Positions 1 to 21,042 of a stretch of DNA of 64,000 nt are shown in pieces. The stretch lies in IMG/VR virus record IMGVR_UViG_3300050821_001227, positions 19,211 to 83,210 of that record. One strand, written 5' to 3'. The notes beneath the pieces were generated by a model that saw only the letters and a list, made by a program, of their open reading frames with translations, was not told the origin of the DNA and did not search any database. This stretch comes from a virus. A program made the translations under genes and the position numbers. Position 1 is the first letter of the stretch; each line of letters opens with the position of its first letter.

Positions 1-1
1 C

Positions 2-5221: not shown

Positions 5222-5242
5222 GAGACAAAAATAAAATAGAGC

Positions 5243-5271: not shown

Positions 5272-5278
5272 GGTAACC

Positions 5279-5551: not shown

Positions 5552-5888
5552 AATATATTTTACAAACGTCAGCATTTGTTTTCAATAAGCTGCGGGTATA
5601 GGCACAACAATTATCGCCAAGTTGTCCCATTCTACTAGAGAGGGGTGCAGCAATACTGCGGTCTACCCTTATTGACGCGGACACAAGCTCCCTCACACAT
5701 CGAACAAACGCCGTATAAGAATCACCCCGGCTTGCAGGAAGCCGTGAACAGGTTATAAAGAAACGGACGGGCTCCTCCACCAGCAGCAATGCTGGTCCCG
5801 TTCCGACATCAGCCGCGATTACGCTTGCCGGACACGCTAGAAGTTACCCGGAGGTAGTCGCGGCAATATTTTTGCTCTGGAGGAGACC

Positions 5889-6407: not shown

Positions 6408-6426
6408 CATTCTCTGGGAGGAGAAA

Positions 6427-6828: not shown

Positions 6829-6834
6829 TCATGT

Positions 6835-6972
6835 TTGAAAGTTTGCAAACGCGGTCACAGTTTGAAAGGCGATAACGTCTTGGAACAGATACGCGATGGA
6901 AGTATTCGCCGATCTTGTAAGAAATGTCAACTAGCACGGAACAAGGTCTGGCAACGAAAGAGGGTATCATAG
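6835..6972 (+). pseudogene. Zinc-finger fragment of an HNH-type endonuclease
   Basis: Frame reads KVCKRGHSLKGDN...RRSCKKC, the CxxGH...CxxC module also seen at the N-terminus of the 24426 protein; no nuclease domain. Confidence 0.5.
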
Positions 6973-7448
6973 TGGCTCAACTCACAGCACAGACAGTCGC
7001 GAAAAGACTGACCTACATGGCGGACGCGAAGAACAACATTCAAGAAGCACCCGGAACCGCCCACGTCACACCCGCCGATGGTAGCAACCCCGGTAACGGG
7101 TTGACCCCCGGCAAGAACGTTAGCATTTTCCGCATTCCAAAACCGGGAGACGGATTCCCGACCGGAAAAAGCGCGACACATTCCGCAGGCACGTACAAGC
7201 CGTTGGTGACTGCTATCCTTCAGCAAAGCAACAACACCGTTGCTGGTCAAGGAACCGCAACACCTGTGGGTTTGGCTGTTGTGGCCGATCCGCACACAGG
7301 CGGAAGATTGCAGAACAGTCTCCAGAACGATGTTTCCGTGATGTCCGCAGCCGCGCAAGCCGCTGGCACGGGCAAGAGCACTCCTACCGTTATCGCGGGC
7401 GGGGCAGCGGGAGACGGTCTGTCGCAAGGCGCAGAAACAATCAACTAA
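6972..7448 (+). CDS. Hypothetical Gly/Ala/Thr-rich protein, possibly virion-associated
   Basis: ORF track 6924..7448; GTG 6972 follows AGAGGG. Confidence 0.65.
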   Translation: MAQLTAQTVAKRLTYMADAKNNIQEAPGTAHVTPADGSNPGNGLTPGKNVSIFRIPKPGDGFPTGKSATHSAGTYKPLVTAILQQSNNTVAGQGTATPVGLAVVADPHTGGRLQNSLQNDVSVMSAAAQAAGTGKSTPTVIAGGAAGDGLSQGAETIN

Positions 7449-7511
7449 CGATCTTCCATCAACATTCGGTGACAGCAAAGCGATTCGCTACTGCTAGTCC
7501 GAATGCCTCAA

Positions 7512-7548
7512 AGGCGGATGCCCTAACATCCGCCTACTTTCTTTAGGG
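7512..7548 (+). promoter_or_regulatory. Hairpin/pseudoknot leader over the RBS of an HNH gene (copy 1)
   Basis: Stem AGGCGGATG/CATCCGCCT; loop CCCTAA is complementary to TTAGGG 7543-7548. Confidence 0.65.
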
Positions 7549-7557
7549 AGAAAGCAA

Positions 7558-8004
7558 ATGAGTTTAGAAACACAACGAGCCGCAAAGCGTCGTTGGAAAG
7601 CCAAACACCCAGAATGGCAAAAGCGTTGGAATGCGGAACATTCGGAGTTAGTTGCTCAAATGTCTCGCCGACAAGCTGCACACTGGAACGCTGCTCATCC
7701 CGAACAAAGAAAAGCGCAGCAGCGTAAAGATAGTAGAAAACGCAAGGCACATAAGCGCAATGCATCGGGAACTTTCACGGAGCAAGAGTTCAACATTCTC
7801 AAAACGTTTTACGGTAACAAGTGCCTTTGCTGTTTGCGTCCCGAAAGGTTGCTTAACGCTCTCGGTATACAGATTGTGCCTGACCACGTTGTGGCTTTGG
7901 CAAAAGGCGGGACTAACGATATCGGAAACATTCAACCGCTTTGTCACGGTAAAGGCGGCTGTAATAACCGCAAAGGCGTAAAGCACGAAGACTACCGAGG
8001 ATAG
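7558..8004 (+). CDS. HNH homing endonuclease
   Basis: CLCC...DHVVALAKGGTNDIGNIQPLC...CNNRKG. Confidence 0.9.
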   Translation: MSLETQRAAKRRWKAKHPEWQKRWNAEHSELVAQMSRRQAAHWNAAHPEQRKAQQRKDSRKRKAHKRNASGTFTEQEFNILKTFYGNKCLCCLRPERLLNALGIQIVPDHVVALAKGGTNDIGNIQPLCHGKGGCNNRKGVKHEDYRG

Positions 8005-8006
8005 CC

Positions 8007-8435
8007 ATGCAATCGACTGTACGCGTGAAAAGAACACAGGCAGCGTACTTTAGAAAGCTGGCCCTCGCGGAAGCAAGGAAGTCGGGCAAAGAAATTCAAG
8101 CGTACTTGGTGGGACATGTTGTCTCACCGCAACTCGTTGTTGTGGACTCGTTCCATTACACGAAGAAGTATGCCGACCAGACCACGTGTTTCGTGCGCTG
8201 GTTCGAAGACGATTATCAAGTCATCAAAGCTGCCGCAGAGGCAGCAGGCAAGCATATCATCGGTGACGCCCACAGCCATCCCGAGTGGGACGCGGTATTA
8301 AGTCCGACCGATTATATTTCGCACATTCAGGAAGGTTACCGCATCGCGGGAATCTGCTCGACGAACAAGGGCCGCACGCGGCTCCGATTCTGGGTAGCAG
8401 AGAGCGCCCTCCCCCTGAAAATAGAGTATAATTAG
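8007..8435 (+). CDS. Stand-alone JAB/MPN (JAMM) metalloprotease
   Basis: E(IQAYLVG)...IIGDAHSHP...LSPTD matches the E-xn-HxH-x7-S-x2-D motif. Confidence 0.8.
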   Translation: MQSTVRVKRTQAAYFRKLALAEARKSGKEIQAYLVGHVVSPQLVVVDSFHYTKKYADQTTCFVRWFEDDYQVIKAAAEAAGKHIIGDAHSHPEWDAVLSPTDYISHIQEGYRIAGICSTNKGRTRLRFWVAESALPLKIEYN

Positions 8436-8454
8436 CCATGCTCTGGGAGGAGAC

Positions 8455-8679
8455 ATGAAGCGCCACACACGCGATACCATCATCGCGCAGATTAACAAAA
8501 AGATAGCCAGCGGCAAAGCGAACAACGCTGAAGTCGTGTTGGTGTGGATGCGCCTCATGTTGACCGAGCCCGAAGTTTGGGGACCACGGTTCGATAAGTG
8601 GTGCACCAAATCGAACAACATCACGCCTGCCGATCAGATACCGGACAACGATCCGTATGCTGGAAACGGAGGCAGATGA
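8455..8679 (+). CDS. Hypothetical protein
   Basis: ORF with GGAGGAG RBS. Confidence 0.7.
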   Translation: MKRHTRDTIIAQINKKIASGKANNAEVVLVWMRLMLTEPEVWGPRFDKWCTKSNNITPADQIPDNDPYAGNGGR

Positions 8680-8945
8680 TGGGCGTCACGACCAAGTATG
8701 AAATCACTCGCACCGAAGTCGATAGACTCGCGCTGGAGTGGTGCAAGGCGAAGCACGTTGTCGTCATGCTAGACGATGTTGCGAGAAACTTCGCAAGAGA
8801 CATCGCGAATAAAGTTCTCCGCGACTTTGTACAGAGTATTGCAGAGATACAAGCAGCGAAAAAAGCAGCAGCTACGGGCGAACCTGCCCCGGCTGCCGCT
8901 CCCGCAGCGACCCCGACGAAACCTTCCATCATCCTGACAGATTGA
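8676..8945 (+). CDS. Hypothetical protein
   Basis: ATGA overlap with the previous gene and GGAGG RBS. Confidence 0.65.
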   Translation: MMGVTTKYEITRTEVDRLALEWCKAKHVVVMLDDVARNFARDIANKVLRDFVQSIAEIQAAKKAAATGEPAPAAAPAATPTKPSIILTD

Positions 8946-8946
8946 C

Positions 8947-9017
8947 GCGGAGCCTTAATCTAAACCTGCTCCGCATTCAAAGCGCGGGCAGTGAGTGAGA
9001 TTAAGCCTGCCCGCGCT
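8947..9017 (+). ncRNA. Candidate structured RNA: two hairpins with complementary (kissing) loops
   Basis: Stem 8947-8953/8968-8974 and stem 8981-8991/9007-9017; loop CTTAATCT (8954-8961) is the exact complement of AGATTAAG (8998-9005). Confidence 0.5.
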
Positions 9018-9078
9018 GTAGGGATTCTTATGAAGGGTTAAGTTAGAACATAAATCTGTGGATTCGCTATCTACAGAC

Positions 9079-9121
9079 GGAGGATGTCTTTCCGGCATCC
9101 TCCAAATTCTCACCGGAAGGA
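9079..9121 (+). promoter_or_regulatory. Hairpin/pseudoknot leader over the RBS (copy 2)
   Basis: Stem GGAGGATG/CATCCTCC; loop TCTTTCCGG is complementary to CCGGAAGGA 9113-9121. Confidence 0.65.
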
Positions 9122-9128
9122 GAATAAT

Positions 9129-9674
9129 ATGAACGCACGCTGCATTGATTTGGCAGGTTCAAGGATTGCCAATGGAGAGGTCGAGGTACTTAGAAAAGTA
9201 CCCAATCCAAACAGCAATACTAGCACGCAGGCATTTTGGGAATGTCTTTGCTCGTGCGGCAATGTGTTTACGACCGCAGGACAAGCAGCGCGAAGATTGA
9301 AGACTGGATGCAGACGATGCTTCGCCGCCAGAAGCAGGATTATGGGAGCAGCCCTAAGTTTCCTATTTTCGCAGTATCGCAATGAGGCGCGGCAGGCTGA
9401 TAGGGCGTTTGAGTTGACGCTTGAAGAGTTCCGAAAGCTGGTCAGCAGCAATTGTGCTTATTGTGGCTTGCAGCCGCAGCAGGTTATTAAGACTGCACAC
9501 GATGTGCTCTTGTATAACGGCATCGACCGAATTGACAGCCGAAAGGGTTATGTTATAGGCAACTGCAATCCCTGTTGCAAAATTTGCAATTACGCCAAGC
9601 ACAACAAGTCCAAAGAAGAGTTCTTGATTTGGCTAAAGCGCGCCTACGAGTTCAATTTCGGGAGTACCCTATGA
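9129..9674 (+). CDS. HNH homing endonuclease
   Basis: WECLCSCGN N-terminus; CAYCG...GIDRIDSRKGY..GNCNPCCKICNYAK. Confidence 0.88.
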   Translation: MNARCIDLAGSRIANGEVEVLRKVPNPNSNTSTQAFWECLCSCGNVFTTAGQAARRLKTGCRRCFAARSRIMGAALSFLFSQYRNEARQADRAFELTLEEFRKLVSSNCAYCGLQPQQVIKTAHDVLLYNGIDRIDSRKGYVIGNCNPCCKICNYAKHNKSKEEFLIWLKRAYEFNFGSTL

Positions 9675-10201
9675 AAGGCGTTCTCGACGGAGCGGATGGA
9701 AAGCCCGTGCTTTACGTAGGAGATGACTCTGATGACGAAGAAGCCCAGAAGCGTGGCTACGCTATACTTTCGGCCTGTAAGGATGGTGCCTACGGGCATC
9801 GTCATTTTCTAGGTTACAAAGAACGCGGAGCGCCGAAAGGCGATCACTACTTCCACGCAACGCGAGGAAAGAGGATGGTCTTAAACCTCCTCGACTTAGA
9901 AGACCCAGAGTTCATCAAGGAAGACGTTATCTTCCCGGCATTGAAGTTCATCAACAAACATCTGAAGGCTGGCGACAAAGTCCTTGTGCACTGTAATGCC
10001 GGACACAGTCGCGGCCCGACAATCGGGATGATGTTCCTCTGTACAATCGGGGAACTCCCCGGAGGCTTTCTGACATCGGAGAAGGTGTTCAGGGCGCTGT
10101 ACCCGAAGTACAATCCCAAAGCAGGTATGAGGACGTTCGCACGGGATCACTGGCAGCAACTAAAGGACAACTTCTATTATGGAACTGACGAACCTCGCTG
10201 A
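9671..10201 (+). CDS. Dual-specificity / protein-tyrosine phosphatase
   Basis: KVLVHCNAGHSRG is the HCxxGxxR active-site loop; downstream NP motif; ATGA overlap start. Confidence 0.88.
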   Translation: MKGVLDGADGKPVLYVGDDSDDEEAQKRGYAILSACKDGAYGHRHFLGYKERGAPKGDHYFHATRGKRMVLNLLDLEDPEFIKEDVIFPALKFINKHLKAGDKVLVHCNAGHSRGPTIGMMFLCTIGELPGGFLTSEKVFRALYPKYNPKAGMRTFARDHWQQLKDNFYYGTDEPR

Positions 10202-10844
10202 TCTTGCTGCGAAGTCCAGTATCGCAGCGCCTGACAAAGGCACCGCAGGCGAACTCGGAGCAAAGCAACAGAACGTGGACGAGTACAACAACGCAACCAA
10301 GCCGACGCCTACGGCAGAACCAGCGAAAGATACAACTCCCTCCCCCAAAGATCGAGTTGCCCCAAAGGCGCGATATGGAGCGCGGCCCGGAGAGAAGCGA
10401 ATCGACACAACGTCGATGACGAAACCTCTCGGCAGTTTTGAGAAGGGGACATCACATGTTCCCAAGACCGGAATCTACAAACTGCACGAAGGCGAAGCAG
10501 TGATTCCAAAGGACAAGAACATGGATAGCATGAAAGACAAGATGATGGATTCTCTCGGCGGCGAGAAAAAGCCGAAGAAAGAAATCAAAGAGATGCACAT
10601 CCGCAAGACTGCGAATGGCAAACACATCGTCACCCACAAGCATCATCATCCCGAGCATCACCCCGACGAGGAGCACTCCATGGAAGACATGGGCGCTCTG
10701 CATCAGCACATGGAAGACCACGCTGGTACGCCGAATGACGGTGAAGGCGCAGAGAGCGCACCGCCCGCAGGCGCAGCGCAGATGACAGCAGCCCCGTCAC
10801 CCGCAGCCGCACCCGCCGCTGGTGCATCGCCGACAGGCATGTAA
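10179..10844 (+). CDS. Hypothetical His-rich protein
   Basis: 221-aa ORF with LHEGEAVIP and HKHHHPEHHPDEEH. Confidence 0.7.
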   Translation: MELTNLADLAAKSSIAAPDKGTAGELGAKQQNVDEYNNATKPTPTAEPAKDTTPSPKDRVAPKARYGARPGEKRIDTTSMTKPLGSFEKGTSHVPKTGIYKLHEGEAVIPKDKNMDSMKDKMMDSLGGEKKPKKEIKEMHIRKTANGKHIVTHKHHHPEHHPDEEHSMEDMGALHQHMEDHAGTPNDGEGAESAPPAGAAQMTAAPSPAAAPAAGASPTGM

Positions 10845-10855
10845 GGAGATTTAAT

Positions 10856-11068
10856 ATGGCTGAGCACAGTCCAGAGGAAAAGGCCCATTTTGCCCGTTCG
10901 ATGCATAAATTGCACGGGGGCGCACTTCACAGACATTTCGGAATACCAGAGGGAGAAACCATCCCTGAAGAAAAGAAAGAAGAAGCCGCCAATAGTTCCA
11001 ATCCTCACGTAGCGGCCATGGGACGCATGGCGAAAGCTATGGCAGGATGGCATCACGGCAGTAAATAA
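10856..11068 (+). CDS. Hypothetical protein
   Basis: AAGGAG RBS, 70 aa. Confidence 0.7.
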   Translation: MAEHSPEEKAHFARSMHKLHGGALHRHFGIPEGETIPEEKKEEAANSSNPHVAAMGRMAKAMAGWHHGSK

Positions 11069-11088
11069 GCCATCGCATCGGAGGATGT

Positions 11089-13182
11089 ATGGCTGGTGAA
11101 CTGGAGATTCTACAGGCTGAGTTTGTAGCAGCCTTCCAGAACAAGAACTATCAACACAAAGGAATGCCAGAAGATGAGTACGACACTCTGGCATTGACGG
11201 CATTTGGTCACTACACGAATAAGCAGCAGTTCGATGCGATGCAGTCGTGGGTGATTTTCAATGGCGGAAAGCGCAAGGCTGGACTCCCGGCTCCCGGCAG
11301 TTGTGAATACGATCATCTGCGGCTAACGGTTGCGCGTTATCGCTTCATGTGCCAGACGAACCTGTTCTTCCTTTGCAAGATGTTGGGTTACTCCAAAGTC
11401 ACCGACAGAGAGTACAACTGGTTCAATCCCCAGACAAAGGGTTGGGAGACGCACAACACGCACGAGGAAATCTGTAACGAGTTCTTTGTGCCGAAAGACC
11501 CGGCGCACTTCGCCACCTTCGAAGCGTTCGCGACCGACGCGACCGCGAAGAGAATGTACAAGCAGCGATTGCTGCTCGTTCCTCGTGGCGGATTCAAATC
11601 GTCCATCAACATGGCCGACTGCGTTCAGTGGATTCTGTGTTTCCCTGAAGTCACCATCGGCATCTTGACTGGAAAGTTAGGATTGGCTGAAGACTTCGTC
11701 GGAGAAGTCAAGGCGCACTTCACCCTTGATGAGAACTTCGAGAAGGACAGCGAGTACAAGGGCTTCCGCCCGCGACTCCTGACAAACAAGTTCACAGGCG
11801 CTCAAACCGTATCTATGCTTCAGGTGTTGTTTCCCGAGCATTGCGTAAAGCCTCAAGAAGGCAAAGCCACTGAGTTCCAGACACCCGCCGTCACGGCTGG
11901 TGACAAAGAGCCAACGATTCGCGCTACAGGTATTGAGCAGTCATTGGCTGGATCACACTTCTGCTTACTGAAGCTGGACGACGTGGTCACCGAAGAGAAC
12001 GTTGAGACCGTAACCCGCATTGAGGGCATCAATCACCGCATCGGTGTTGACAAAGCCTTGATGCACGCATTCGGTTTCTTCGACGTAATCGGTACGTGGT
12101 ACGATGAGAGAGACTACTACGGTAAGCAAATCGCTTACGACGACAAGTTGTTCTTGGCTTCACAGCGCAACCCGGCGATGAAGATTTACCGCCGCGCTGT
12201 ATGGTGGCCAACCGCCGAATGCTTGGCGGCTGGTAAGATTGAGTCCGAGTGGACTGAACAAGACGTACATCTCTGGTTCCCCGCAGTTCTAACGTTCGAC
12301 TTGATGAAAGCGTCGGCGATGACGGAGCCCGATGTATTTGCCATCAAGTATCTGAACGATCCTCGTCAGATCAACAAGATTAAGTTCCCGCGCGAACTCT
12401 TGATTCGCCGCACGATTAACCATAATCTGTGCCCGCATCAAGGCATGATCGTTACGACCGTGGATACGGCCTACTCGACGCAGAGTTGGGCAGACTATAC
12501 CGTCATCATGACGGCAATCATCCATGGCGGGAGATTCTACATCATCAACATGGTGCGCGGAAGGTTCAACGAGTACGAACTTCCAGCGGTCATCGCGACT
12601 GTCGGGTATAAGTGGAAGCCGAAGCAGATCATCATCGAGGAGGTGATGGGCACTGCATTCGTCAAACGCGAAATCCGGCGCGAGATGGAAAAGCTGAAGA
12701 TTAGTATTCCGCTCCGTAGCGCAGGTCTGGGTCAAGGCAACAAAGCCAGATCGAAATCCATGAAAGCCAAGCCAGTCCTGAGACTGCTTGGCGACCAACG
12801 CATGTTCTTCGTCAACTCTTGTGAAAGTCTCGAAGAAATTTATACCGAGATGTCTCAGTTCACTGGGACAGCGGACGACAAGCATGACGACATCATCTCA
12901 GCAATTTCTCTGCTGGCTGAGGTCTTCGCGCCGTACGCGGACATGCACTCACAAATTAACGCGGTTGAAACTTCGTACGCGGCGGACGCGCAGTCTTACG
13001 AGCATCACCAGATGATTTACGGTCTGGGTAAGTACGCTCAACAGAATCCGGCCTTCGCAACGGATGACAACCCGAACACGCAGTTTCAGTTAGAGCAGGC
13101 CGCGCAGGCCGTTGAGCAGTCCGACGATAATCCGTTGGATGACTTGTTCGGCGGTGACCGTGCGCTGAAGACGGTGATCTGA
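11089..13182 (+). CDS. terL: Terminase large subunit
   Basis: Walker A-like PRGGFKS, Walker B LLKLDD, IGTWY, nuclease VDTAYS...DY and HDDIISA; located upstream of the portal. Confidence 0.9.
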   Translation: MAGELEILQAEFVAAFQNKNYQHKGMPEDEYDTLALTAFGHYTNKQQFDAMQSWVIFNGGKRKAGLPAPGSCEYDHLRLTVARYRFMCQTNLFFLCKMLGYSKVTDREYNWFNPQTKGWETHNTHEEICNEFFVPKDPAHFATFEAFATDATAKRMYKQRLLLVPRGGFKSSINMADCVQWILCFPEVTIGILTGKLGLAEDFVGEVKAHFTLDENFEKDSEYKGFRPRLLTNKFTGAQTVSMLQVLFPEHCVKPQEGKATEFQTPAVTAGDKEPTIRATGIEQSLAGSHFCLLKLDDVVTEENVETVTRIEGINHRIGVDKALMHAFGFFDVIGTWYDERDYYGKQIAYDDKLFLASQRNPAMKIYRRAVWWPTAECLAAGKIESEWTEQDVHLWFPAVLTFDLMKASAMTEPDVFAIKYLNDPRQINKIKFPRELLIRRTINHNLCPHQGMIVTTVDTAYSTQSWADYTVIMTAIIHGGRFYIINMVRGRFNEYELPAVIATVGYKWKPKQIIIEEVMGTAFVKREIRREMEKLKISIPLRSAGLGQGNKARSKSMKAKPVLRLLGDQRMFFVNSCESLEEIYTEMSQFTGTADDKHDDIISAISLLAEVFAPYADMHSQINAVETSYAADAQSYEHHQMIYGLGKYAQQNPAFATDDNPNTQFQLEQAAQAVEQSDDNPLDDLFGGDRALKTVI

Positions 13183-13412
13183 TGAGCGATATAGAAATCA
13201 TACCCGCGAATCCGCCGATCAACTCGGCGCGTATCAACCAATCGCGAGTCATCAACACTACGCTGTCTCTACGGGACCGCAGACAAGAACCAGTAGTCAT
13301 CCCGCCTCCTCCGGTTGACGAGAAAGTAGAAGTGCTGAAGGTACAACGACGGCACTTCGTAGCACCAGAGATAAGCGCACCGGAGCAAGTATTCCGGCGC
13401 ACCCGGCGCTAA
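13182..13412 (+). CDS. Hypothetical protein
   Basis: TGATG overlap with terL. Confidence 0.6.
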   Translation: MSDIEIIPANPPINSARINQSRVINTTLSLRDRRQEPVVIPPPPVDEKVEVLKVQRRHFVAPEISAPEQVFRRTRR

Positions 13413-13430
13413 CTTAGGGAAAGGGGGCGT

Positions 13431-15560
13431 ATGGCTCAGTTACCAATCGATGGAAATCCAAATCGCGCCCTCACTGAACAGGACTATAAGGTCTCTGGAG
13501 AGTTGAAGTCCGACGCGGCAGCGGTAGCCCTAGTCAACGGTTGCGCAACCGCAGCCGAGCAGTTTATTTCGAACAAGCAGTGGAACCTGCTGTGGCGCGA
13601 TAGCGATCTTTTGTATCAATCGCCGCGTCCTATGTCGGTGTACGAGAACACGTACATCTTGGAACCGAACGTTCAGCGGTTCACGGTGGCGAAGGTTGTG
13701 AACGCAATCGTCCCTCAGCTTTACAAGGGACTGTTCTACGACGATCCACCGATGTTAATGCGGCCTATGCCGGGAACTGAGCAAGCTGAAGTTGACGCCA
13801 AGACGGCGGTCTTCTCCTACTTGCTGAACGCTTGTAACTTCAAGCGCAATACCAAGTGGGGACTTGAACAGATGGCCCACCTTGGAACGGGCGTCTGGAA
13901 GTGGGGAATCCGCTATGAGAAAATAGTCGTCAAGACTCGTAAGCCAACCGTCTATAAGGACGGCGACAATCCGGCAGTGCCAACGTTCGATAAACCGGAC
14001 ATTGAGAGAAAGATTCGAGTTGTGCCGCGACCGTTCTTCGAGTGGCGTCCGCTCGACAAAGTATTCTTTGATCCAAACACGCGAGTGGGCGATGCCCGCG
14101 AAGCGCGATGGGCAATCGACATCCGCAACCTCGACTTCTATGAAGTCCTTGCGATTAAGAGAGCCATCGAAGGTCTACCCGACGATGCGGAAGAACGCAA
14201 GGGTTGGATGTGGCCGGGAGATGGTTCCGACAGGGCTCTACAGCAATTGTGGATGCCGCCAGTCGAACAAGGTGCGATTGAGTTGATGTCTGACTCATCC
14301 ACCCATGTCACAGAGATTGTCCACCATTCATTGGACGATTCACAAAATTCCACGCCGGATATTCTCCGACGCAAGATGGAGTTGCTGGAGTATTGGGACA
14401 AGGGTCGCAAGATCATCGTCCTCGACCGCAAGAAAGCGATTTACACTGGCAAGAATCCGTTCGCCGAAATCGGTATCGAGAACTGCATTCCGTTCCTTTC
14501 CGCCAACTGGTGGAACCGCCCGAAGGCGTTTTACGGAATGGGCCTCGGTCTAATCGTTGGTCAGAACCAGCGCGTAGATCAGGGTACGATCAACTCGATC
14601 CTGAAGATATTGTCATTTGGTGTCAACCCAATCTATCTGCGCCGACGCGATTCCAATACGCCAACACAGATGATTCGAACAGGTATCGGGCGAATCCTCA
14701 CCGTTGATGTTAAAGAAGGTCGGCCAGTCGGCGATGCTTACGGCATCCTCGAACAGCCGAAGGTGCCATCCGAAGTCTGGGCAGCACTCAGTGAATCTGA
14801 AAAGAACACTGAGTCTACATCAGGCGCAGATGCGCAGTTGGTGCAAGGTAGCAGCGCTGGTCCCCGCAGTTCGATGGGCCGCACTGCAACAGGAGCCTCG
14901 CAACTCGGCGCAGCAAGCGCAACTCGGTTGGACGGTCCTCTCGATAACTTCATCGAGCAGGTGTTCACGCCATTCTTGTACATCTTGGACGACTTGGTTG
15001 AAGAGTACCTTTCCGATGGTGAGATTCACTTCATCTGCGGAGAAGAGTTGGGCAAGGCATACATGCTCAACTTGGCACGGTACCACGAAGCCAAGATGGA
15101 GTTTGAAGTGCTGGCGGGCGCAAGCCTTTCCGCCAAGCGCATCATGGCTCAGTCCCTGACGCTCATCACGCAAATATTTGAGAACCCGCAGATTCAACAG
15201 AACCTCGCGGAAATCAACGGAGAGTACATCGACTTCAAGCCGATACTCTCGATGTGGATGGAAGCGTCGGAGTGGAAGAACCGCAACGACATCATCAAGA
15301 AACTTACGCCGGAAATGAAGCAGGCTCAACAGGCAAAGTCAGCGCAGGCACAGGCAAACAGCAAGCTGCAAGCGCAACAGTCTTTGAACACGCAGAAGTT
15401 CCAGCAGAAACAGCAGTTAGAGGACCAAGCGAACCAGAACCGCGTACAGCGGGACATTGTTCGTGAGTCTTTCCGCAACTCGGCCATGAGCGAAGCAGTT
15501 ACAGGACAGCCAAGCGCAGGCGGCTTGGAAGGTTCCGCTGAGACAGGCTCAGTTGTGTAA
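13431..15560 (+). CDS. Portal protein
   Basis: 709 aa after terL; GTGVWK, FFDP, ELLEYW, FYGMG and RTATGAS motifs; Gln-rich C-terminal barrel. Confidence 0.88.
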   Translation: MAQLPIDGNPNRALTEQDYKVSGELKSDAAAVALVNGCATAAEQFISNKQWNLLWRDSDLLYQSPRPMSVYENTYILEPNVQRFTVAKVVNAIVPQLYKGLFYDDPPMLMRPMPGTEQAEVDAKTAVFSYLLNACNFKRNTKWGLEQMAHLGTGVWKWGIRYEKIVVKTRKPTVYKDGDNPAVPTFDKPDIERKIRVVPRPFFEWRPLDKVFFDPNTRVGDAREARWAIDIRNLDFYEVLAIKRAIEGLPDDAEERKGWMWPGDGSDRALQQLWMPPVEQGAIELMSDSSTHVTEIVHHSLDDSQNSTPDILRRKMELLEYWDKGRKIIVLDRKKAIYTGKNPFAEIGIENCIPFLSANWWNRPKAFYGMGLGLIVGQNQRVDQGTINSILKILSFGVNPIYLRRRDSNTPTQMIRTGIGRILTVDVKEGRPVGDAYGILEQPKVPSEVWAALSESEKNTESTSGADAQLVQGSSAGPRSSMGRTATGASQLGAASATRLDGPLDNFIEQVFTPFLYILDDLVEEYLSDGEIHFICGEELGKAYMLNLARYHEAKMEFEVLAGASLSAKRIMAQSLTLITQIFENPQIQQNLAEINGEYIDFKPILSMWMEASEWKNRNDIIKKLTPEMKQAQQAKSAQAQANSKLQAQQSLNTQKFQQKQQLEDQANQNRVQRDIVRESFRNSAMSEAVTGQPSAGGLEGSAETGSVV

Positions 15561-15660
15561 GACAGGAGGGGCAGGGATTCGCCGACGTGGCGAGTCCTCC
15601 TAGCCATCTTTCAAATAGGTGACTAGGTCCGCCCCGTTATATCTCTGGGAGGAGACGATT

Positions 15661-16059
15661 ATGGTTGACCCCGATCTGGAGTTGACACCAACCGAGCGAT
15701 CCGATCTTGCGATGATGTTCCAAAGTAAAGGATGGCAGGTTGTACTGAAGTTGTTCCGCATCATTGTCGAGCAGTTCCGAGTGGACTTAGACAATGCCGA
15801 TCACGCGAATCCCAAAGATGTGCTTGCAAAGCACGCGCTCTCCCGAGCGGCTGGTACCGTGGTCACAATCATCATTCACCGTATCGCTCAGGAAGTCGCA
15901 TCTCTCCAAGAGGCGCGAAGCCGCCAAGGCAGCCCTGAGAACCCACAAGAATCTGCTCCCGGCCTAGAAATGGACGCGATTGAGCACGCAGTAGAAGGAC
16001 TACCCAACCTGCTGGGCGATGTAACCTACATCTCCGAAGAGGACGATGACGAGCGTTGA
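15661..16059 (+). CDS. Small post-portal protein
   Basis: RBS motif before ATG 15661; SKGWQVV pattern typical of the small gene that follows podovirus portals. Confidence 0.7.
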   Translation: MVDPDLELTPTERSDLAMMFQSKGWQVVLKLFRIIVEQFRVDLDNADHANPKDVLAKHALSRAAGTVVTIIIHRIAQEVASLQEARSRQGSPENPQESAPGLEMDAIEHAVEGLPNLLGDVTYISEEDDDER

Positions 16060-16073
16060 GGAGCGCTAAGACA

Positions 16074-17405
16074 ATGAGTAAGTATTCCAAAGCTGTCGTC
16101 GATGCAATGACGAGCGAACAGTACCGTGAGAACTTTAACAACGATCCGGAGTTCCGGACGTACATCGATGGTGAATACAGCAACAACGCTCCCACGGAAG
16201 CCGTTGCCGCACCCCCGCAAGTCGGGAGACGTGGCCCCCGCGACCGCAAGGAAGTAGCCGCAGTATCCCCCGTCGCAGCGCCGACACGCGTATTTGATCC
16301 GTCATTCGACGACGATCCGAACGGTGCACCGCCAGCCGCAGCAGCGGCAGTTGAAGTGCCCGTAGAACCGCCTGTTGCGCCCGTGCCCGCCGCAGTTGTT
16401 CCCCCGGTCGTTGAGACCCCGGCTGAACTGCCCGAGAAACGCCATGAGTATGATATCGTGGACAAGAAGGGCCGCAAGATCGGCGGACGACAAGTATTCA
16501 AGCACAAGACCGATGCTGAGTTGATCGAACAGTTGACCAAGTCGAACATCAACCTGCGCGTCATGGTGCAAGAGATTCGCGAAAAGCAGTTGCTCGAAGG
16601 CACAGAACTGCCGGAAGAAACCACAGCGGTTCAACCGTTGTCGCTTCGCCCGGTTCTGACTGCCGAAGAACGCGCTGCGACCGAAGCCAAGCTGCAAGAC
16701 CCGGCAGAATCGGCCCGCGCCCAGTACGTACTGGATCAAGACGACAACCGTCGCGTCCAGAACGATCTGTTGACCAGTAATTTTGAGAGCCGCGTGTTAC
16801 TGGCTCTTGAGAGTTTCAAGAATCGCAACCGTGATTATGTCCCGACCCAAGATAATGCCGCCAAGTTGGTGGGCTTTATTGAACGTCGCGGCCTTGATCC
16901 AACGAATGCAAAGAACTACCAAAGAGCGTTCGACGTGCTCCGTGATAACGGCAGCCTCGACGGCGCTTCTGAGAATCAGGTGACTGAGCCCGTATTGGCC
17001 TCAGCACCTCCTATAGTGCGTGAGGAAAAGACGGCACCCGTTGCGACGGTGCCCGTGGTTGAACCCACTCGGATTAGTGAGGTAACGCCACCGCCAGCTA
17101 GGGTTGCAGCCCAAGTTCCAACAGGGCTATCGAGTGCCGATCAGACATCCGATATCGACAACCCCTTGCCACAAGCACCTTGGTTAACAATCAGGGTTCA
17201 CTTGAAAGACGCAAAGGGTCAGCCGACCAGCCAGTACCAAGAGTTCAATAACCTCGACGCAATCGACCACTGCGACGACAAAACGTTGAAGCACATCATC
17301 GCCGATCAGTCACCCAGAGGCAAGGCATTACGAGCCGCGTGGGATAACGCTGAAGCGGAGAAGCAGCAACGTTTGGCCGACCAGCGGCGTAAGCGTGGGT
17401 ATTAA
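16074..17405 (+). CDS. Putative capsid scaffolding protein
   Basis: Pro/Ala/Glu-rich, lies between portal and capsid genes, basic C-terminus. Confidence 0.7.
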   Translation: MSKYSKAVVDAMTSEQYRENFNNDPEFRTYIDGEYSNNAPTEAVAAPPQVGRRGPRDRKEVAAVSPVAAPTRVFDPSFDDDPNGAPPAAAAAVEVPVEPPVAPVPAAVVPPVVETPAELPEKRHEYDIVDKKGRKIGGRQVFKHKTDAELIEQLTKSNINLRVMVQEIREKQLLEGTELPEETTAVQPLSLRPVLTAEERAATEAKLQDPAESARAQYVLDQDDNRRVQNDLLTSNFESRVLLALESFKNRNRDYVPTQDNAAKLVGFIERRGLDPTNAKNYQRAFDVLRDNGSLDGASENQVTEPVLASAPPIVREEKTAPVATVPVVEPTRISEVTPPPARVAAQVPTGLSSADQTSDIDNPLPQAPWLTIRVHLKDAKGQPTSQYQEFNNLDAIDHCDDKTLKHIIADQSPRGKALRAAWDNAEAEKQQRLADQRRKRGY

Positions 17406-17463
17406 AGAACTCCCGTTGTATCTCTCTGGGAGGAGAGTGAACAACAGAAAGATTGGATAATTT

Positions 17464-19431
17464 ATGACGGGTTATAGTCCCGCAATTAACAATCAGTCGA
17501 ACCTCCCGCAATCGACTGTGAAGTATTCATAGTACTTCTCCCTAGCATTCGATTGCGTAGTAAATGTATGACAAGAAGTTCAGGGAAAACTTGAAGGCCC
17601 AGACTCCCTTCGTGGCTTGTTCAGAACGTTTGGATTTGCCGATGAAGTCTGGTAACCAGTATGAGATTTCAGAAACATGATAGTCCCATACAGTTTAAAA
17701 TCTTGCTAAATCGGTGAAGGTCTGTTAAAATCAGATAATACCGAGGAAACTTGTGAAACGAAAGACAGCACAGTACATGGCGGGACTTATGGACGCGGAA
17801 GGAATGTTCGACATCGAACGTGCCTTCAGAAGCGATGATAGGAACTGCTACAACTATACCGTAAAGATTGTGCTTACCAATACAAATATTGCCCTGATGA
17901 AGTGGGCCGTTAAGTACTTTGGGGGCGTTTACAAAAAGCGCAAACCTGAGGTTGGTAAGAAACAAGCTTATGATTGGATAATCTCTAATCAGAAGCACGG
18001 GCTGTCGTTCATCTCCCAAATATTTCCGTTCCTTGTGGTCAAAAGAGCAGAAGCACAAACGTTAGTTGACTACTATGCCATGTATGGCAAAGAGTTTCCA
18101 GAACGACGTGAACAACTGTTCTTCAAAAACAAAGAATTGAAATGGGACAAAAGTTCCGTAACGACTGACATGCAAGATATCTCTAATGCTTATGCGGCAG
18201 GGTTTGTAGATGGCGACGGGAGTATAGACACTCCGCACCGTTTAGCAGTATCCAACGCATGCAAAGTCTTGATTGATTTGTTCAAAGCAACGTATGGCGG
18301 GTCGTATTATTTGGATGTCCGTGAGGAACCAAATCAAAACGATTCTCACGTGTGGTATCTTTCTAATCCTACAAAGGTTGAAAAGATAGTGCTTTCGTGG
18401 CTGCCATACTTGATTGATAAACATCATCGAGGCGAACAGGTGCTAAAACGCCTGCGAGATAAAGATACAGTCTGAACTAACGGGCGACCGTTAGAGTGAA
18501 CCTGACGGAAGTCAGGGTTACGAAGCCGTTCTGGTTTCGTATTCATCCAAAACACAGTTGGTTCATGTACGTTCCGTTGGCAGCCAACACTTCGACCACC
18601 GTTGAAGGAACCGTTGGGACTTCCATTCCGGTCAGCGTGCTGAACACCACCGCTGTCATCGGCGAATACGCCGACTACGCTAACTTCTCCTCGCTGTCTT
18701 TGGCCACTGCCATCGACAACACCGTCGAGAACGTCGCGAAGGAACTGTCGTACCGCTTGGGCGAGTCTTTGAGCGCTCTGGTTCGTGCGACCGCAGACGG
18801 CGCGTCCGCCATCGACTCCAGCGTGCTTGTTGAACTGGGTGCTACCAGCACTTCCAGCTTCACCGCTCTGTCTTTGAGCCAAATCCGTAACTCTGTCCAG
18901 TCTCTGGCAGGTCGTTCGGTTCGGCCCTTCGATGAAGCAAGCAAAGCATTCTGCGGTGTCATCCATCCGTTCGCCCTTGGCGACGTTCTGGCTGACAACA
19001 GCAACGATTCGCCGCTCGACATGTTGAAGCACACCCCCGTGGGTATGGCCAAGATGGAAGAGTTGGTGAGCGTTGATCTGACCGAGGTCATTGAATTGCC
19101 CGCTTCTGGCGTGCATTTCTTCCAGACCAACCAGATCACCACGACTTCGAACTATCAGACTGTCACTGGTCTGACGGCTCTCCGCACCTACATCTTCGGG
19201 CGCGATGGTATCTACTCCATCAACCTTGGAGCACAGGGCGACACCGGGTTCGGCGACGGTGAATGGCAGAACATTAAGTGCAACATCAAGCAGAACGTTG
19301 AACCCAGCGTTGCTGACCCCGAAGGACTCATCCCCGGATGGACTTCGTATCGTGTGCACTTCACCACGTCTCTCGGACCTGACACGACCATTCGCCAGCG
19401 CCAGATCGACGCGGCTAGCGCCATTTCCTAA
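17464..19431 (+). CDS. Major capsid protein (N4-gp56-like), three exons: join(17464..17526,17567..17667,18561..19431), 344 aa
   Basis: The join restores MTGYSP...TVKY|YDKKFRENLKAQTPF...LPMKSGNQYE(M)FMYVPL...EGT...EYADY...GVIHP, matching the family pattern YYDKK...LP..SG...F..Y..L; position after the scaffold gene. Confidence 0.85.
17527..17566 (+). other. 40-nt core-less group I-like mini-intron in the capsid gene
   Basis: Splits KY|YDKK, contains an in-frame TAG and shifts the frame. Exon GAAGTAT pairs with GTACTTC (P1, U.G at the junction), TCATA pairs with 3' exon TATGA (P10), and the insert ends in G. Confidence 0.7.
17668..18560 (+). mobile_element. Group I self-splicing intron (893 nt) with LAGLIDADG ORF
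   Basis: P1 GTATGAGAT/GTCCCATAC with U.G; P3 ATCTTGC 17700/GCAAGAT 18172; P4 TCGGT/ACCGA; P6 GGAAACTT/AAGTTCC; P7 GACTG 18163/CAGTC 18468; P8 TATCTC/GAGATA; S element AAAGATACAGTC; P9 TAACGG-GCGA-CCGTTA; P10 ACATGA/TCATGT; terminal G. Removal restores the frame. Confidence 0.92.
17753..18475 (+). CDS. Intron-encoded double-motif LAGLIDADG homing endonuclease
   Basis: YMAGLMDAEG and YAAGFVDGDG motifs; FPFLVVK and LPYLIDK; lower GC than flanking genes. Confidence 0.9.
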   Translation: MKRKTAQYMAGLMDAEGMFDIERAFRSDDRNCYNYTVKIVLTNTNIALMKWAVKYFGGVYKKRKPEVGKKQAYDWIISNQKHGLSFISQIFPFLVVKRAEAQTLVDYYAMYGKEFPERREQLFFKNKELKWDKSSVTTDMQDISNAYAAGFVDGDGSIDTPHRLAVSNACKVLIDLFKATYGGSYYLDVREEPNQNDSHVWYLSNPTKVEKIVLSWLPYLIDKHHRGEQVLKRLRDKDTV

Positions 19432-19439
19432 AGGAATCT

Positions 19440-19910
19440 ATGGCACTAAAAAACGTACCCAAGTCTCCTGAGCACCGCGCCAAGCTTATTCAAGTTTTGG
19501 AGCGTACTTGGGAGAATAGACCTAACAAGCACAAGATTCAAGCGATTGATAAAGTCGCAATGACTGGCTGCTGTGTCACCTGTGGTCAAGTTCCTTTGAA
19601 AGTAGTACGTCATCGGAACAACAAGCAGGGATATGTTAGAGACCAGTATCTATGCTGGGTCGGTTCGCTACGAAGCGGCGAAGCACAAGTTTCCTATGCG
19701 GGTCAGGCACTAGAAATGCTTGACTCGCAGAAGGGTAACTGCGCTTTGTGCGAACAGCCTCTTGACCGTTTTGACATGGTTTTAGATCACGACCATGAAA
19801 CGAAACTCATTCGCGGGTTTCTTCATCAAAACTGTAACAAAGGGCTAGGCATGCTTGGAGATAATCCGAGCATTCTCAAACGAGCCATCGACTACCTAAC
19901 AAAGAAATAG
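19440..19910 (+). CDS. Endonuclease VII-type homing endonuclease
   Basis: QKGNCALC...LDHDHET..IRGFLHQNCNKGLG..GD. Confidence 0.88.
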   Translation: MALKNVPKSPEHRAKLIQVLERTWENRPNKHKIQAIDKVAMTGCCVTCGQVPLKVVRHRNNKQGYVRDQYLCWVGSLRSGEAQVSYAGQALEMLDSQKGNCALCEQPLDRFDMVLDHDHETKLIRGFLHQNCNKGLGMLGDNPSILKRAIDYLTKK

Positions 19911-20577: not shown

Positions 20578-21042
20578 ATGAAACACGAAACAGAAGCAGA
20601 ACGTTTGGCGTATAACGCCTATTACCGAAACTATCGCAAGCAGTGGTCTCCTGAGATGAAGGAGAAAGAACGGCAGCGTAAGCGAGATTGGATTGCAGCA
20701 CATCCAGAGCAGCATCGTACAAACACTCGTCGTGCTGCGCGAAAGCGCCGGATTATAATTCAAGCGCATCCCGAGTTTCAAAAAGCAGCACAGGTTCAGT
20801 TCAACCATTCAATAAGTCTGGAAGAATATGAATGTAGGCTGCGCGACCAAGGCGGCATTTGCCGTCTTTGTAATAAGCCGTTCACGGACGATAATCCTCC
20901 CGTGCTCGACCACAATCACGACACTGCGCAGTTGCGAGATTTTATCCATCGGCAATGTAATGCGGCTCTTGGATTATTTAAAGACAGTGTTGAGGTTTGC
21001 AAGTTGGCCGCTGAATATTTAGAGCGGCACAGTAGAGGATGA
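20578..21042 (+). CDS. Endonuclease VII-type homing endonuclease
   Basis: QGGICRLC...LDHNHDT..LRDFIHRQCNAALG.FKD. Confidence 0.88.
   Translation: MKHETEAERLAYNAYYRNYRKQWSPEMKEKERQRKRDWIAAHPEQHRTNTRRAARKRRIIIQAHPEFQKAAQVQFNHSISLEEYECRLRDQGGICRLCNKPFTDDNPPVLDHNHDTAQLRDFIHRQCNAALGLFKDSVEVCKLAAEYLERHSRG

What the first reader, a model, noticed from the sequence alone, without database searches (positions are those of the whole stretch)
17520..17575. 40-nt core-less group I-like mini-intron in the essential capsid gene, next to a complete ribozyme intron
Seen: the capsid frame MTGYSP...TVKY (17464-17526) stops at TAG two codons later and resumes in another frame at 17567 as YDKKFREN; removing exactly 17527-17566 restores KYYDKK. 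The insert has group I splice-site features: exon GAAGUAU pairs with insert GUACUUC with U.G exactly at the junction (P1), the first insert bases UCAUA pair with the 3' exon start UAUGA (P10), a small hairpin follows (CUAGCA...UGCGUAG), and the last base is G. It has no room for P3-P8. Established: group I splicing needs the P3-P8 core, and cores can act in trans on P1 substrates in vitro. Inference: this is a dependent (satellite) intron excised by the core of the intron 101 nt downstream, in cis or in trans. That would make the big intron indispensable and could gate capsid synthesis. Skipping directly from exon 1 to exon 3 is out of frame, so both excisions are required. Alternatives: translation restarts at the in-frame ATG 17564 (no SD visible, loses the N-arm), or the ribosome hops TAT to TAT.
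Basis: partly seen in the sequence, partly recalled or inferred. Interest (0 to 1): 0.93.

Follow-up and report, generated by a model that had tools for sequence, protein, structure and literature searches.

The report
Core-less mini-intron spliced from phage mRNA
A 40-base insert that breaks a soil phage's capsid gene is cut out of the messenger RNA exactly where predicted, although it has only the splice-site guide of a group I intron and no ribozyme, so it most likely borrows the ribozyme of the complete intron 101 bases downstream.

Summary
Window 17527-17566 is a 40-nt insert in the major capsid gene. Relatives read straight through this site.

The key result comes from RNA. In one soil metatranscriptome, a 1523-nt contig matches the window without a single difference over 1154 nt. 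It lacks exactly 17527-17566 and exactly the 893-nt intron 17668-18560. The DNA run holds both. A ribosome hop or a restart is therefore not needed.

Related phage capsid genes carry 34-72-nt inserts at six sites. All 18 tested have a U.G splice-site pair, an adjoining P10-P1 guide and a final G. Full-length group I introns occupy three of the same sites in other genomes.

Every mini-bearing gene also holds a full-length intron: 12 of 12 complete genes, against 9 of 81 without a mini. The neighbouring intron is the only ribozyme core detected in the 83-kb contig.

Best reading: a non-autonomous group I intron spliced by a borrowed core. The excision is supported by RNA data; the identity of the catalyst is inferred.

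This scan had noted such mini-introns in seven other genomes, all without RNA data. The closest published things are 56-81-nt degenerate group I introns of fungal rDNA and engineered "spliceozymes".

The parts
17464..17526 (+). Capsid exon 1 (MTGYSPAINNQSNLPQSTVKY). Its last 7 nt, 17520-17526 (GAAGUAU), are the exon strand of P1.
   Evidence: Homologous to the N-terminus of Tunturi_3 gp6. Under purifying selection in mini-bearing genes: synonymous/non-synonymous codon differences are 8/0, 7/0 and 4/1 for the window against L250, L087 and L066. Joined to 17567 in the RNA contig.
17527..17566 (+). 40-nt core-less mini-intron. P10 guide 17527-17531 (UCAUA); P1 guide 17532-17538 (GUACUUC); post-guide UCCCU 17539-17543; J3/4-P4-like remnant GAUUGCG 17551-17557; terminal G 17566.
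   Evidence: Absent from RNA contig X3 record 5, present in DNA contig X1 record 1. P1 7 bp with U.G, P10 5 bp; 16 of 20,000 shuffles reach both. No Rfam match. Variants of 40-71 nt lie at the same site in relatives.
17567..17667 (+). Capsid exon 2 (101 nt, YDKKFRENL...SGNQYE + AT). 17567-17571 (UAUGA) is the exon strand of P10. 17582-17586 (AGGGA) can pair with the post-guide UCCCU.
   Evidence: a unique T...G junction solution. The RNA contig keeps all 101 nt with no difference. The post-guide pairing is seen in 6 of 12 variants.
17668..18560 (+). Full-length group I intron (893 nt), the candidate helper. It starts after U and ends in G. J8/7-P7' element at 18463-18475; P9 hairpin at 18477-18494.
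   Evidence: Precisely missing from RNA contigs of two studies (X3 record 5, X4 record 12). Weak RF00028 match, 19.8 bits, E 0.024. Its ORF-less homologue at the same site in L066 scores 55 bits against a gathering score of 50. It holds the only F1/F2-type core motif in the 83 kb.
17753..18475 (+). LAGLIDADG homing endonuclease gene inside the intron (GTG start, GAGGA upstream). Its last codons overlap the J8/7-P7' element.
   Evidence: Pfam LAGLIDADG_1, E 4.4e-11. ORF listed. Overlap seen by comparing.
18561..19431 (+). Capsid exon 3, stop codon included.
   Evidence: 83.7% identical to Tunturi_3 major head protein over 289 aa. Joined to 17667 in RNA.

Best explanation
Window 17527-17566 is a non-autonomous, core-less group I intron.

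Origin (inferred): it arose from a full-length group I intron by an internal deletion. The deletion left the 5' guide, which is a P10 strand directly followed by a P1 strand, plus a few bases of J3/4-P4 and the last ~10 nt with the terminal G.

Folding (shown by the sequence): in the pre-mRNA the guide pairs with the end of exon 1, with U.G at the splice site, and with the start of exon 2.

Catalysis (inferred): this P1/P10 helix docks into the catalytic core of a complete group I intron. The most likely one is the LAGLIDADG intron 101 nt downstream in the same transcript. That core carries out the two transesterifications and joins 17526 to 17567. Its own excision joins 17667 to 18561. Only the doubly spliced mRNA encodes the 344-aa capsid protein.

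Shown here: the insert and the intron are precisely absent from RNA, and the group I splice-site anatomy is present and recurrent. Inferred here: the chemistry is group I chemistry, and the neighbour's core is the catalyst. Whether it acts in cis or in trans is open.
For: 1. RNA. A 1523-nt contig from a library on record as a soil metatranscriptome (X3 record 5, depth 15.4) covers 17200-17526, 17567-17667 and 18561-19286. The pieces are directly adjacent in the contig, with 0 other letters and 0 gaps. DNA contig X1 record 1 is continuous through both inserts.

2. Same allele. The nearest IMG/VR relatives are at most 92% identical in exon 3 and 76-84% in exon 2. Near-identical intron-less partners of other mini-bearing contigs differ in the exons next to the introns: 3 of 70 nt, 74% identity and 83% identity. 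The RNA contig shows 0 differences in 1154 nt, so it comes from the insert-bearing allele.

3. Not a repeat-mediated skip. The joint keeps both TAT codons and shares only one letter between its two sides.

4. Anatomy. All 18 short inserts tested, at five sites (A, B, D, E, C), have a 5' exon ending in T, a T.G junction pair, P1 of 6-9 bp, a directly adjoining P10 of 5-8 bp and a last base G. At most 28 of 20,000 shuffles per insert reach both pairings. A sixth site (L279, 34 nt) shows the same features by eye.

5. The guide follows the exon. It differs at each site and always matches the local exon. At site A, position -7 pairs as G-C (3), U-A (3) or C-G (1).

6. Same sites as full-length introns: A (L115), B (eight contigs) and D (window, L066, L085, L039, L093).

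7. Co-occurrence. Of 93 distinct complete genes, 12 have a mini plus a full-length intron, 0 have a mini alone, 9 have only a full-length intron and 72 have neither (Fisher 7e-10, not corrected for relatedness). Three partial genes with a mini also have a full-length intron. All 20 metagenome loci with a site-A mini hold a full-length intron or end inside one. By contrast, 8 of the 9 genes with only full-length introns carry a single insertion.

8. Only core in the contig. There is one core motif in 83 kb. Rfam gives no other group I match at E <= 1 in the window or in the first 19 kb. Only the capsid gene is interrupted when compared with Tunturi_3 ORFs.

9. The helper is active and genuine. 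It is spliced out in RNA of two studies, and its ORF-less homologue passes the RF00028 threshold.

10. Exon 1 stays under purifying selection.
Against: - All RNA evidence is from assembled contigs, not reads. Only one of three RNA runs laid shows the 40-nt joint.
- In X4 the contigs over the insert are unspliced. Record 11 covers 17406-17556. Record 12 starts at 17564, so it carries the last 3 nt of the insert, yet it already lacks the big intron. So the insert can persist after the helper has left. That fits trans action or dead-end molecules, but not a strictly cis, helper-last order.
- RNA libraries can hold DNA.
- No base-pairing tether between mini tails and helper introns was found; all z scores were above -2.
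- Within site A, only one of the 12 pairs was free to vary, because the search pattern fixed the others. That pair is unpaired in 7 of 14 variants.
- Co-occurrence could partly reflect hitch-hiking. Exons around introns look imported together with them.
- In L279 a 34-nt mini lies 777 exon-nt from the only full-length intron, so proximity is not required.
- The contig is about 86% complete, and the host was not examined.
- Published work claims that a 67-nt fungal intron splices by itself (PMC3160393).
Confidence: 0.62

Rival explanations
1. Autonomous minimal ribozyme. The 40-nt insert, helped by flanking exon structure, splices itself, as has been claimed for the 56-81-nt degenerate group I introns of fungal rDNA. 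The neighbouring intron is only a travelling companion.
For: PMC3160393 (parts 1-2 read) reports that the 67-nt PaSSU intron has P1, P7, P10 and a mid-intron to 3'-exon pairing, and splices in vitro when about 300 nt of exon are present. Here the segment after the guide pairs with exon 2 nt 12-20 in 6 of 12 site-A variants, with three sequence types that follow the Arg codon. The window insert can form a 3+3-bp hairpin with a bulged G. Exons and introns seem to move as blocks, which could explain the co-occurrence.
Against: None of the 15 mini-bearing gene sequences and none of the 20 metagenome loci lacks a full-length intron, although 72 of 93 complete genes are intron-free and 8 of 9 genes with only full-length introns carry just one. 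The interior is not conserved: window and L066 differ at all 12 middle bases, and lengths run from 34 to 72 nt. No conserved P7-like element is present. The terminal base is G, not U. The 34-nt member leaves 22 nt outside its guide.
Confidence: 0.08
2. Group I chemistry, but with another core: a group I intron of the host, or one in the roughly 14% of the phage genome missing from the contig, supplies the ribozyme in trans.
For: The contig is estimated at 86% complete. L279 shows that a mini can lie 777 exon-nt from the only full-length intron in its gene, so distance is not limiting. X4 shows mini-bearing RNA after the neighbour has been removed.
Against: Every mini-bearing gene has a full-length intron in the same gene, which a host or distant helper would not require. 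No other core was found in the 83 kb.
Confidence: 0.08
3. The joint in the RNA contig does not report splicing of this allele. It would come from DNA or RNA of an otherwise identical allele without insert and intron. The insert-bearing gene would then be read by a ribosome hop from TAT 17524 to TAT 17567, by a restart at ATG 17564, or not at all.
For: Near-identical genomes with and without introns coexist. Only contigs were laid, and RNA libraries may hold DNA. In X4 the insert is retained. TAT/TAT, a stop one codon after the take-off codon and a hairpin over the take-off codon recall T4 gene 60 (recalled, no call). A 43-nt hop gives an open frame. An in-frame ATG ends the insert.
Against: The RNA contig has 0 differences in 1154 nt, including exon 2, the stretch that differs most between alleles. 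Library X3 also holds the intron interior as a separate contig at lower depth, but no exon-intron junction. The insert ends in ATG, TTG, CTG or AAG in relatives, and lengths of 40-71 nt shift the frame freely. Site B minis have no matching take-off and landing codons. The P10-P1 guide recurs at six sites and tracks the local exon, which translation models do not need.
Confidence: 0.08
4. Protein-catalysed excision: an endonuclease cuts at the hairpin and an RNA ligase rejoins the exons.
For: The relative Tunturi_3 is annotated with two RNA ligases and an RNA 2'-phosphotransferase.
Against: No RtcB, RNA_ligase (PF09414) or PTS_2-RNA match in the 83-kb contig. Tunturi_3, which has those genes, has no insert in its capsid gene. 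The U.G pair, the P10 pairing and the terminal G are group I rules, and the inserts sit at group I insertion sites.
Confidence: 0.03

Closest known systems
Self-splicing group I introns of phages (Rfam RF00028; T4 td/nrdB/sunY and Twort orf142 with three introns, the latter cited in passages of PMC10136302; the T4 names are recalled)
   Same: 5' splice site after a U paired with G in P1; an internal guide that also pairs with the 3' exon (P10); a terminal G; insertion in a conserved phage structural gene; the same insertion sites as full-length relatives; precise exon ligation in RNA.
   Different: No P3-P9 core and no G-binding P7. Length is 34-72 nt, against about 180-1200 nt for the full-length introns in these genes. 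It cannot be its own catalyst.
Small degenerate group I introns of fungal nuclear SSU rDNA (PaSSU 67 nt; class of 56-81 nt; PMC3160393, parts 1-2 of 3 read)
   Same: Tiny remnants of group I introns thought to have arisen by internal deletion. They keep P1 and P10, show a mid-intron pairing with the 3' exon, and are spliced in vivo.
   Different: The fungal introns are reported to keep a P7 with a G-site, to end in U, to self-splice in vitro, to be monophyletic at one rDNA site and to lie in rRNA. The phage minis end in G, show no conserved P7-like element, lie at six or more sites of a protein-coding gene, and are always accompanied by a full-length intron.
Engineered 'spliceozymes': Tetrahymena ribozyme variants that remove an intron from a separate pre-mRNA (PMC4094466, abstract read; PMC4509937, search listing only)
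   Same: A group I core removes an internal segment that has no core of its own and joins the flanks, in vitro and in E. coli. The removed segment is constrained near the splice sites only.
   Different: In the engineered system the guide sequences are on the ribozyme. Here the guide lies in the removed segment. The engineered system is artificial; this would be a natural case.
Cooperation of tandem group I introns (exon skipping in Twort orf142 and Coxiella 23S rRNA; engineered pairs that form one ribozyme; PMC10136302, passages read)
   Same: Two group I elements a short exon apart in one transcript, where one core can use splice sites belonging to the other.
   Different: In those cases both partners are complete introns and the outcome is exon skipping. 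Here one partner is core-less and the exon between them is kept.
Programmed translational bypassing (T4 gene 60, 50-nt gap; mitochondrial 'byp' elements) - recalled, no call
   Same: A short untranslated insert in an essential phage gene, a hairpin over the last codon before it, and identical codons on both sides at site A.
   Different: In bypassing the gap stays in the mRNA. Here an RNA contig lacks it. Minis at other sites have no matching codons.

Membership tests
Group I intron (RF00028) | 5' splice site follows a U that forms a U.G pair in P1 with an internal guide | tested here: met
   GAAGUAU / GUACUUC with U17526.G17532. All 18 of 18 related minis show a T.G junction pair.
Group I intron (RF00028) | The guide also pairs with the start of the 3' exon (P10), and the intron ends in G | tested here: met
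   UCAUA / UAUGA; G17566. P10 is 5-8 bp and the last base is G in 18 of 18 minis.
Group I intron (RF00028) | Conserved catalytic core P3-P9 with a guanosine-binding P7 | tested here: not met
   Only 28 nt lie outside the guide. No Rfam match over 17527-17566 at gathering score or at E <= 10. The interior is not conserved between window and L066.
Group I intron (RF00028) | Precise excision with exon ligation at the RNA level | tested here: met
   X3 record 5 joins 17526 to 17567 with no extra letters. The evidence is a contig, from one of three RNA runs laid.
Group I intron (RF00028) | Self-splicing with guanosine as cofactor (G added to the 5' end of the intron) | not testable with these tools
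   Needs in vitro transcription and splicing assays.
Small degenerate group I introns of fungal rDNA (PaSSU type) | P7-like hairpin with an unpaired base beside a G-C pair | tested here: inconclusive
   The window can form CUA-GCA ... UGC-G-UAG. The element is absent or different in L066, L085, L089 and L084.
Small degenerate group I introns of fungal rDNA (PaSSU type) | Terminal U instead of G; a single site in nuclear SSU rDNA; monophyletic | tested here: not met
   Terminal G in 18 of 18. Six sites in a phage capsid gene. Remnant motifs suggest derivation from two intron families.
Small degenerate group I introns of fungal rDNA (PaSSU type) | [quoted passage not shown] | tested here: inconclusive
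   An anchored helix of 5-8 bp in 6 of 12 site-A variants, in three sequence types. An unconstrained shuffle test is not significant.
Programmed translational bypass (T4 gene 60 type) | The coding gap is retained in the mature mRNA | tested here: not met
   The gap is absent from X3 record 5. It is retained in the low-depth X4 contigs.
Programmed translational bypass (T4 gene 60 type) | Matching take-off and landing codons | tested here: inconclusive
   TAT/TAT at site A in all 14 variants. No match at site B (L039, L080; read by eye).
Trans-acting group I ribozyme ('spliceozyme'-like) | The catalyst is a different RNA element from the segment removed | not testable with these tools
   Indirect only: strict co-occurrence with full-length introns and a single core in the contig.

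The most novel reading that the evidence does not exclude
The full-length intron's ribozyme acts as a shared splicing enzyme for a whole family of core-less mini-introns. These minis would be parasites of a parasite, spreading through soil-phage structural genes. Some genes have one core serving two minis, one of them 777 exon-nt away (L279). This would be a natural 'spliceozyme'. It would also be a group I counterpart of the split between small catalytic RNAs and passive introns that is usually invoked for group II introns and the spliceosome.
Probability: 0.4. Interest if true: 0.95.

Novelty: new variant of a known kind. Interest (0 to 1): 0.9.

Why it matters
Group I introns are defined by catalysing their own removal. 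A 40-nt intron cannot do that, yet here it is removed from an essential phage mRNA. If the neighbouring ribozyme does the work, several things follow.

- Natural group I ribozymes can act on foreign P1/P10 substrates inside cells.
- Introns can lose their catalyst and survive as dependants, much as non-autonomous transposons do.
- The helper intron becomes indispensable to its host gene.

The finding also has a practical side. Gene callers will report such capsid genes as broken or N-terminally truncated. The elements are common: minis were found in 15 of 101 distinct capsid gene sequences sampled here. In this sample, frame breaks beside group I introns in this group of soil phages were mostly not pseudogenes.

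The system is small enough (about 1.3 kb) to test directly in vitro.

Tried and rejected
**Restart at ATG 17564.** Rejected as a general mechanism. The last three bases of site-A minis are ATG, TTG, CTG or AAG, and the RNA contig lacks the insert.

**Ribosome hop TAT to TAT.** It gives an open frame but is not needed given. It has no counterpart at site B.

**Frameshifting.** Rejected, because insert lengths of 40, 41, 42, 43, 44, 56, 68 and 71 nt shift the frame freely.

**Base-pair tether between mini and helper.** RNAduplex of each mini tail against the first 130 and last 170 nt of every co-resident full-length intron, with 40 shuffles each, gave no z below -2. The first attempt, with 200 shuffles, timed out.

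**Thermodynamic signal.** The fold of 17510-17585 is not unusual (z -1.41). The minimum-energy structure prefers a competing hairpin, ACUGUGA with UCAUAGU.

**Covariation within site A.** This is only weakly informative, because the 17-nt search pattern fixes 11 of the 12 pairs. The covariation score is reached by 14 of 500 shuffles.

**Post-guide pairing with exon 2.** An unconstrained shuffle test is not significant. The anchored comparison is suggestive only.

**Phage RNA ligase route.** No RtcB, RNA_ligase or Tpt1 family match in the contig.

**More minis or introns in other genes of this contig.** Compared with Tunturi_3 ORFs, only the capsid gene is interrupted. All 23 other apparent gaps checked are in frame and free of stops.

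**Other cores.** None were found by motif or by Rfam. Sensitivity is limited: the known big intron itself is not reported in the whole-window scan at E <= 1.

**17-mer matches outside capsid genes.** I took them as chance matches and did not study them further.

**RNA runs without cover.** Run X5 has no cover over the insert, and X4 has none over the intron interior. Neither is used as evidence.

**Literature.** Eight searches were answered. None gave a natural core-less group I intron in a phage or bacterium. The library lacks most subscription journals, and supplements were not opened. The Tunturi paper (PMC11924767) has 0 occurrences of 'intron' in its main text.
Full report
**What is in the window.** The window is part of an 83-kb IMG/VR phage contig, about 86% complete. 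It is related to Tunturiibacter phage Tunturi_3: its major head protein is 83.7% identical over 289 aa.

The capsid gene is in three pieces:
- exon 1, 17464-17526 (MTGYSPAINNQSNLPQSTVKY);
- a 40-nt insert, 17527-17566;
- exon 2, 17567-17667;
- an 893-nt intron, 17668-18560, carrying a LAGLIDADG gene (Pfam E 4.4e-11);
- exon 3, 18561-19431.

Tunturi_3 gp6 and most relatives read ...STVK(F/Y)YDKKF... without a break. Removing both inserts gives a 344-aa open frame, with 290 of 344 aligned positions identical to gp6. Keeping the 40 nt stops translation at codon 23. Skipping exon 2 is out of frame.

**RNA evidence.** The look-up of sequencing runs returned 24 runs. I laid four of them: one DNA run that may be the source (X1) and three runs on record as metatranscriptomes (X3, X4, X5).

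- X1 record 1 (22.5 kb) is continuous over 17200-19500.
- X3 record 5 (1523 nt, depth 15.4) lies on 17200-17526, 17567-17667 and 18561-19286. The pieces are adjacent in the record (positions 1154-828, 827-727 and 726-1), with no other letters and no gaps. So it lacks exactly the 40 nt and exactly the 893 nt.
- X3 record 6 (801 nt, depth 6.7) is the intron interior, 17683-18483.
- X4 comes from a different study. Its record 12 joins 17667 to 18561 but begins at 17564, so it still carries the last three bases of the insert. Its record 11 covers 17406-17556, which is unspliced.
- X5 does not cover the region.

In short, one RNA run shows the mini excised, and one shows it retained on RNA that has already lost the big intron.

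Caveats stated by the tool: these are contigs, RNA libraries may contain DNA, and contigs drop rare variants.

**Is the joint splicing, or an insert-less allele?** Four points bear on this.

- The nearest IMG/VR relatives of the window are at most 92% identical in exon 3 and 76-84% in exon 2.
- Near-identical genomes with and without introns do exist: L081/L080, L110-112/L084 and L123/L133. In each pair the exons next to the introns differ far more than the backbone: 3 of 70 nt against 1 of 1687; 83% against 99.9%; 74% against 99.6%. An insert-less allele would therefore be expected to differ in exon 2. The X3 contig does not differ at any of 1154 positions.
- The joint keeps both TAT codons and shares only one base between its two sides. 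A repeat-mediated reverse-transcriptase skip or assembly collapse is therefore unlikely.
- The joint falls exactly where homology and the group I rules place it.

I put about 0.9 on real RNA-level excision.

**A family of such inserts.** Two protein-guided scans of IMG/VR kept 80 loci each. Together the IMG/VR scans gave 150 loci with a capsid gene, representing 101 distinct gene sequences, and the metagenome scan gave 20 further capsid loci.

Ungapped protein chaining and junction refinement found short inserts at six sites:

| Site | Position (aa) | Lengths (nt) |
|---|---|---|
| A | 20\|21 | 40-71 |
| B | 22\|23 | 49, 72 |
| D | 54\|55 | 45-48 |
| E | about 301 | 52 |
| C | 307\|308 | 46-47 |
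| F | 313\|314 | 34 |

All 18 tested have a 5' exon ending in T, a T.G junction pair, P1 of 6-9 bp, a directly adjoining P10 of 5-8 bp and a terminal G. Shuffles of the insert reach both pairings 0-28 times in 20,000. The guide differs at each site and always matches the local exon. At site A the one pair not fixed by my search pattern is G-C (3), U-A (3), C-G (1) or unpaired (7), which is only modest support.

**Origin.** Full-length introns sit at exactly the same phosphodiester bonds in other contigs: site A in L115; site B in eight contigs; site D in the window, L066, L085, L039 and L093.

Two families are visible.
- One carries LAGLIDADG genes. Its ORF-less member in L066 scores 55 bits on RF00028, against a gathering score of 50.
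- The other carries Endonuclease_7 genes.

By eye, the site-A and site-B minis keep a GAUUG(A/C) motif and a GUAA..UG tail like the second family. The site-D minis keep the guide and the ACA..UUG tail of the first. The minis therefore look like internal-deletion derivatives of full-length introns. This is inference from motif resemblance.

**Dependence on a helper.** Among 93 distinct complete genes, 12 have a mini plus a full-length intron, 0 have a mini only, 9 have only full-length introns (8 of these have a single insertion) and 72 have none. Fisher's test gives 7e-10, not corrected for relatedness or for the pattern-based sampling. Three partial mini-bearing genes also have a full-length intron. 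All 20 metagenome loci have one or end inside one.

In the window's contig, the neighbour is the only core found by motif or by Rfam. Only the capsid gene is interrupted relative to Tunturi_3.

Two points argue against a simple cis picture. L279 has one 208-nt intron and two minis, one of them 777 exon-nt away. No base-pair tether between minis and helpers was detected.

Hitch-hiking with mobile introns may add to the co-occurrence. It cannot explain how a core-less insert is removed.

**Other readings.**
- Autonomy has a published precedent in the fungal 56-81-nt introns (PMC3160393). An anchored pairing of the post-guide segment with exon 2 in 6 of 12 variants recalls their 'PM' helix. However, the phage minis lack a conserved interior, end in G, and never occur without a full-length intron.
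- Protein ligation is not supported.
- Restart and hop do not generalise.

**Selection.** Exon 1 differs from its homologues in L250, L087 and L066 by 8, 7 and 4 synonymous codons and by 0, 0 and 1 non-synonymous codons, so it is still translated. The mini itself is more conserved than the exons: 39 of 40 and 38 of 40 bases are identical to L250 and L087, although exon 2 is only 76% identical to L087.

**Known or new.** Eight literature searches found no natural core-less group I intron in phages or bacteria. The closest published items are:
- the fungal small introns;
- engineered spliceozymes (PMC4094466, abstract);
- cooperating tandem introns (PMC10136302, passages).

This scan had already noted the same kind of element in seven other genomes, in capsid and portal genes, each time without RNA data. 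The present window adds the RNA junction.

**Verdict.** It is a new variant of a known kind. Confidence in the helper mechanism is 0.62, and interest is 0.9.

Noticed in passing
L279, capsid gene aa 313|314 (stretch printed): A 34-nt mini-intron, the shortest seen. P1 is CCCGGAU/GUCCGGG, P10 is GGUCU/GGACC, and the last base is G. The gene has only one full-length intron (208 nt, at aa 54), which lies 777 exon-nt away, plus a second mini at aa 20.
   Followed up: partly
window 17539-17543 with 17582-17586; L066, L085, L102, L226, L219: The bases right after the P1 guide can pair with exon 2 nt 12-20. There are three sequence types that follow the Arg codon (AGG, CGC, CGU), seen in 6 of 12 site-A variants. 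This recalls the 'PM' helix of the fungal small introns. An unconstrained shuffle test was not significant.
   Followed up: partly
L084 vs L110-L112; L133 vs L123; L080 vs L081: Genomes that are 99-99.9% identical differ by the presence of all capsid introns and minis. The exons next to the inserts are only 74-95% identical. The intron-bearing segments look imported as blocks (co-conversion).
   Followed up: partly
L133 about 6480-6997, 7621-8035, 9423-9992: Three further insertions, absent from the 99%-identical L123, lie downstream of the capsid gene. They may be more mobile elements or introns in other genes.
   Followed up: no
window 17527-17566 vs L250, L087: The mini is more conserved (39/40 and 38/40 bases) than the flanking exons (exon 2 is 76% identical to L087; 8 of 21 exon 1 codons differ from L250). 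This suggests constraint on the whole insert or recent spread between lineages.
   Followed up: partly
window 19440-19907 and 20578-21039: Two free-standing Endonuclease_7 family genes lie directly downstream of the capsid gene. They belong to the same family as the ORFs inside the second intron family.
   Followed up: partly
window 17683-18483 (RNA run X3, record 6): The intron RNA contig lacks the first 15 and last 77 nt of the intron. Contigs cannot show true ends, so this may be an assembly effect or may reflect a processed or circularised intron.
   Followed up: no
window 17515-17533: An alternative hairpin, ACUGUGA with UCAUAGU, competes with P1 in the minimum-energy fold.
   Followed up: no
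PP885686 (L162) 823-2049, 7272-8462, 14650-15207: Tunturi_3 is annotated with two RNA ligases and an RNA 2'-phosphotransferase. The window's contig has no match to these families.
   Followed up: partly
L281 (G000 1-19210) 17254-17533, minus strand: A permuted tmRNA (RF04321, 74.4 bits) is encoded by the phage just upstream of the window.
   Followed up: no
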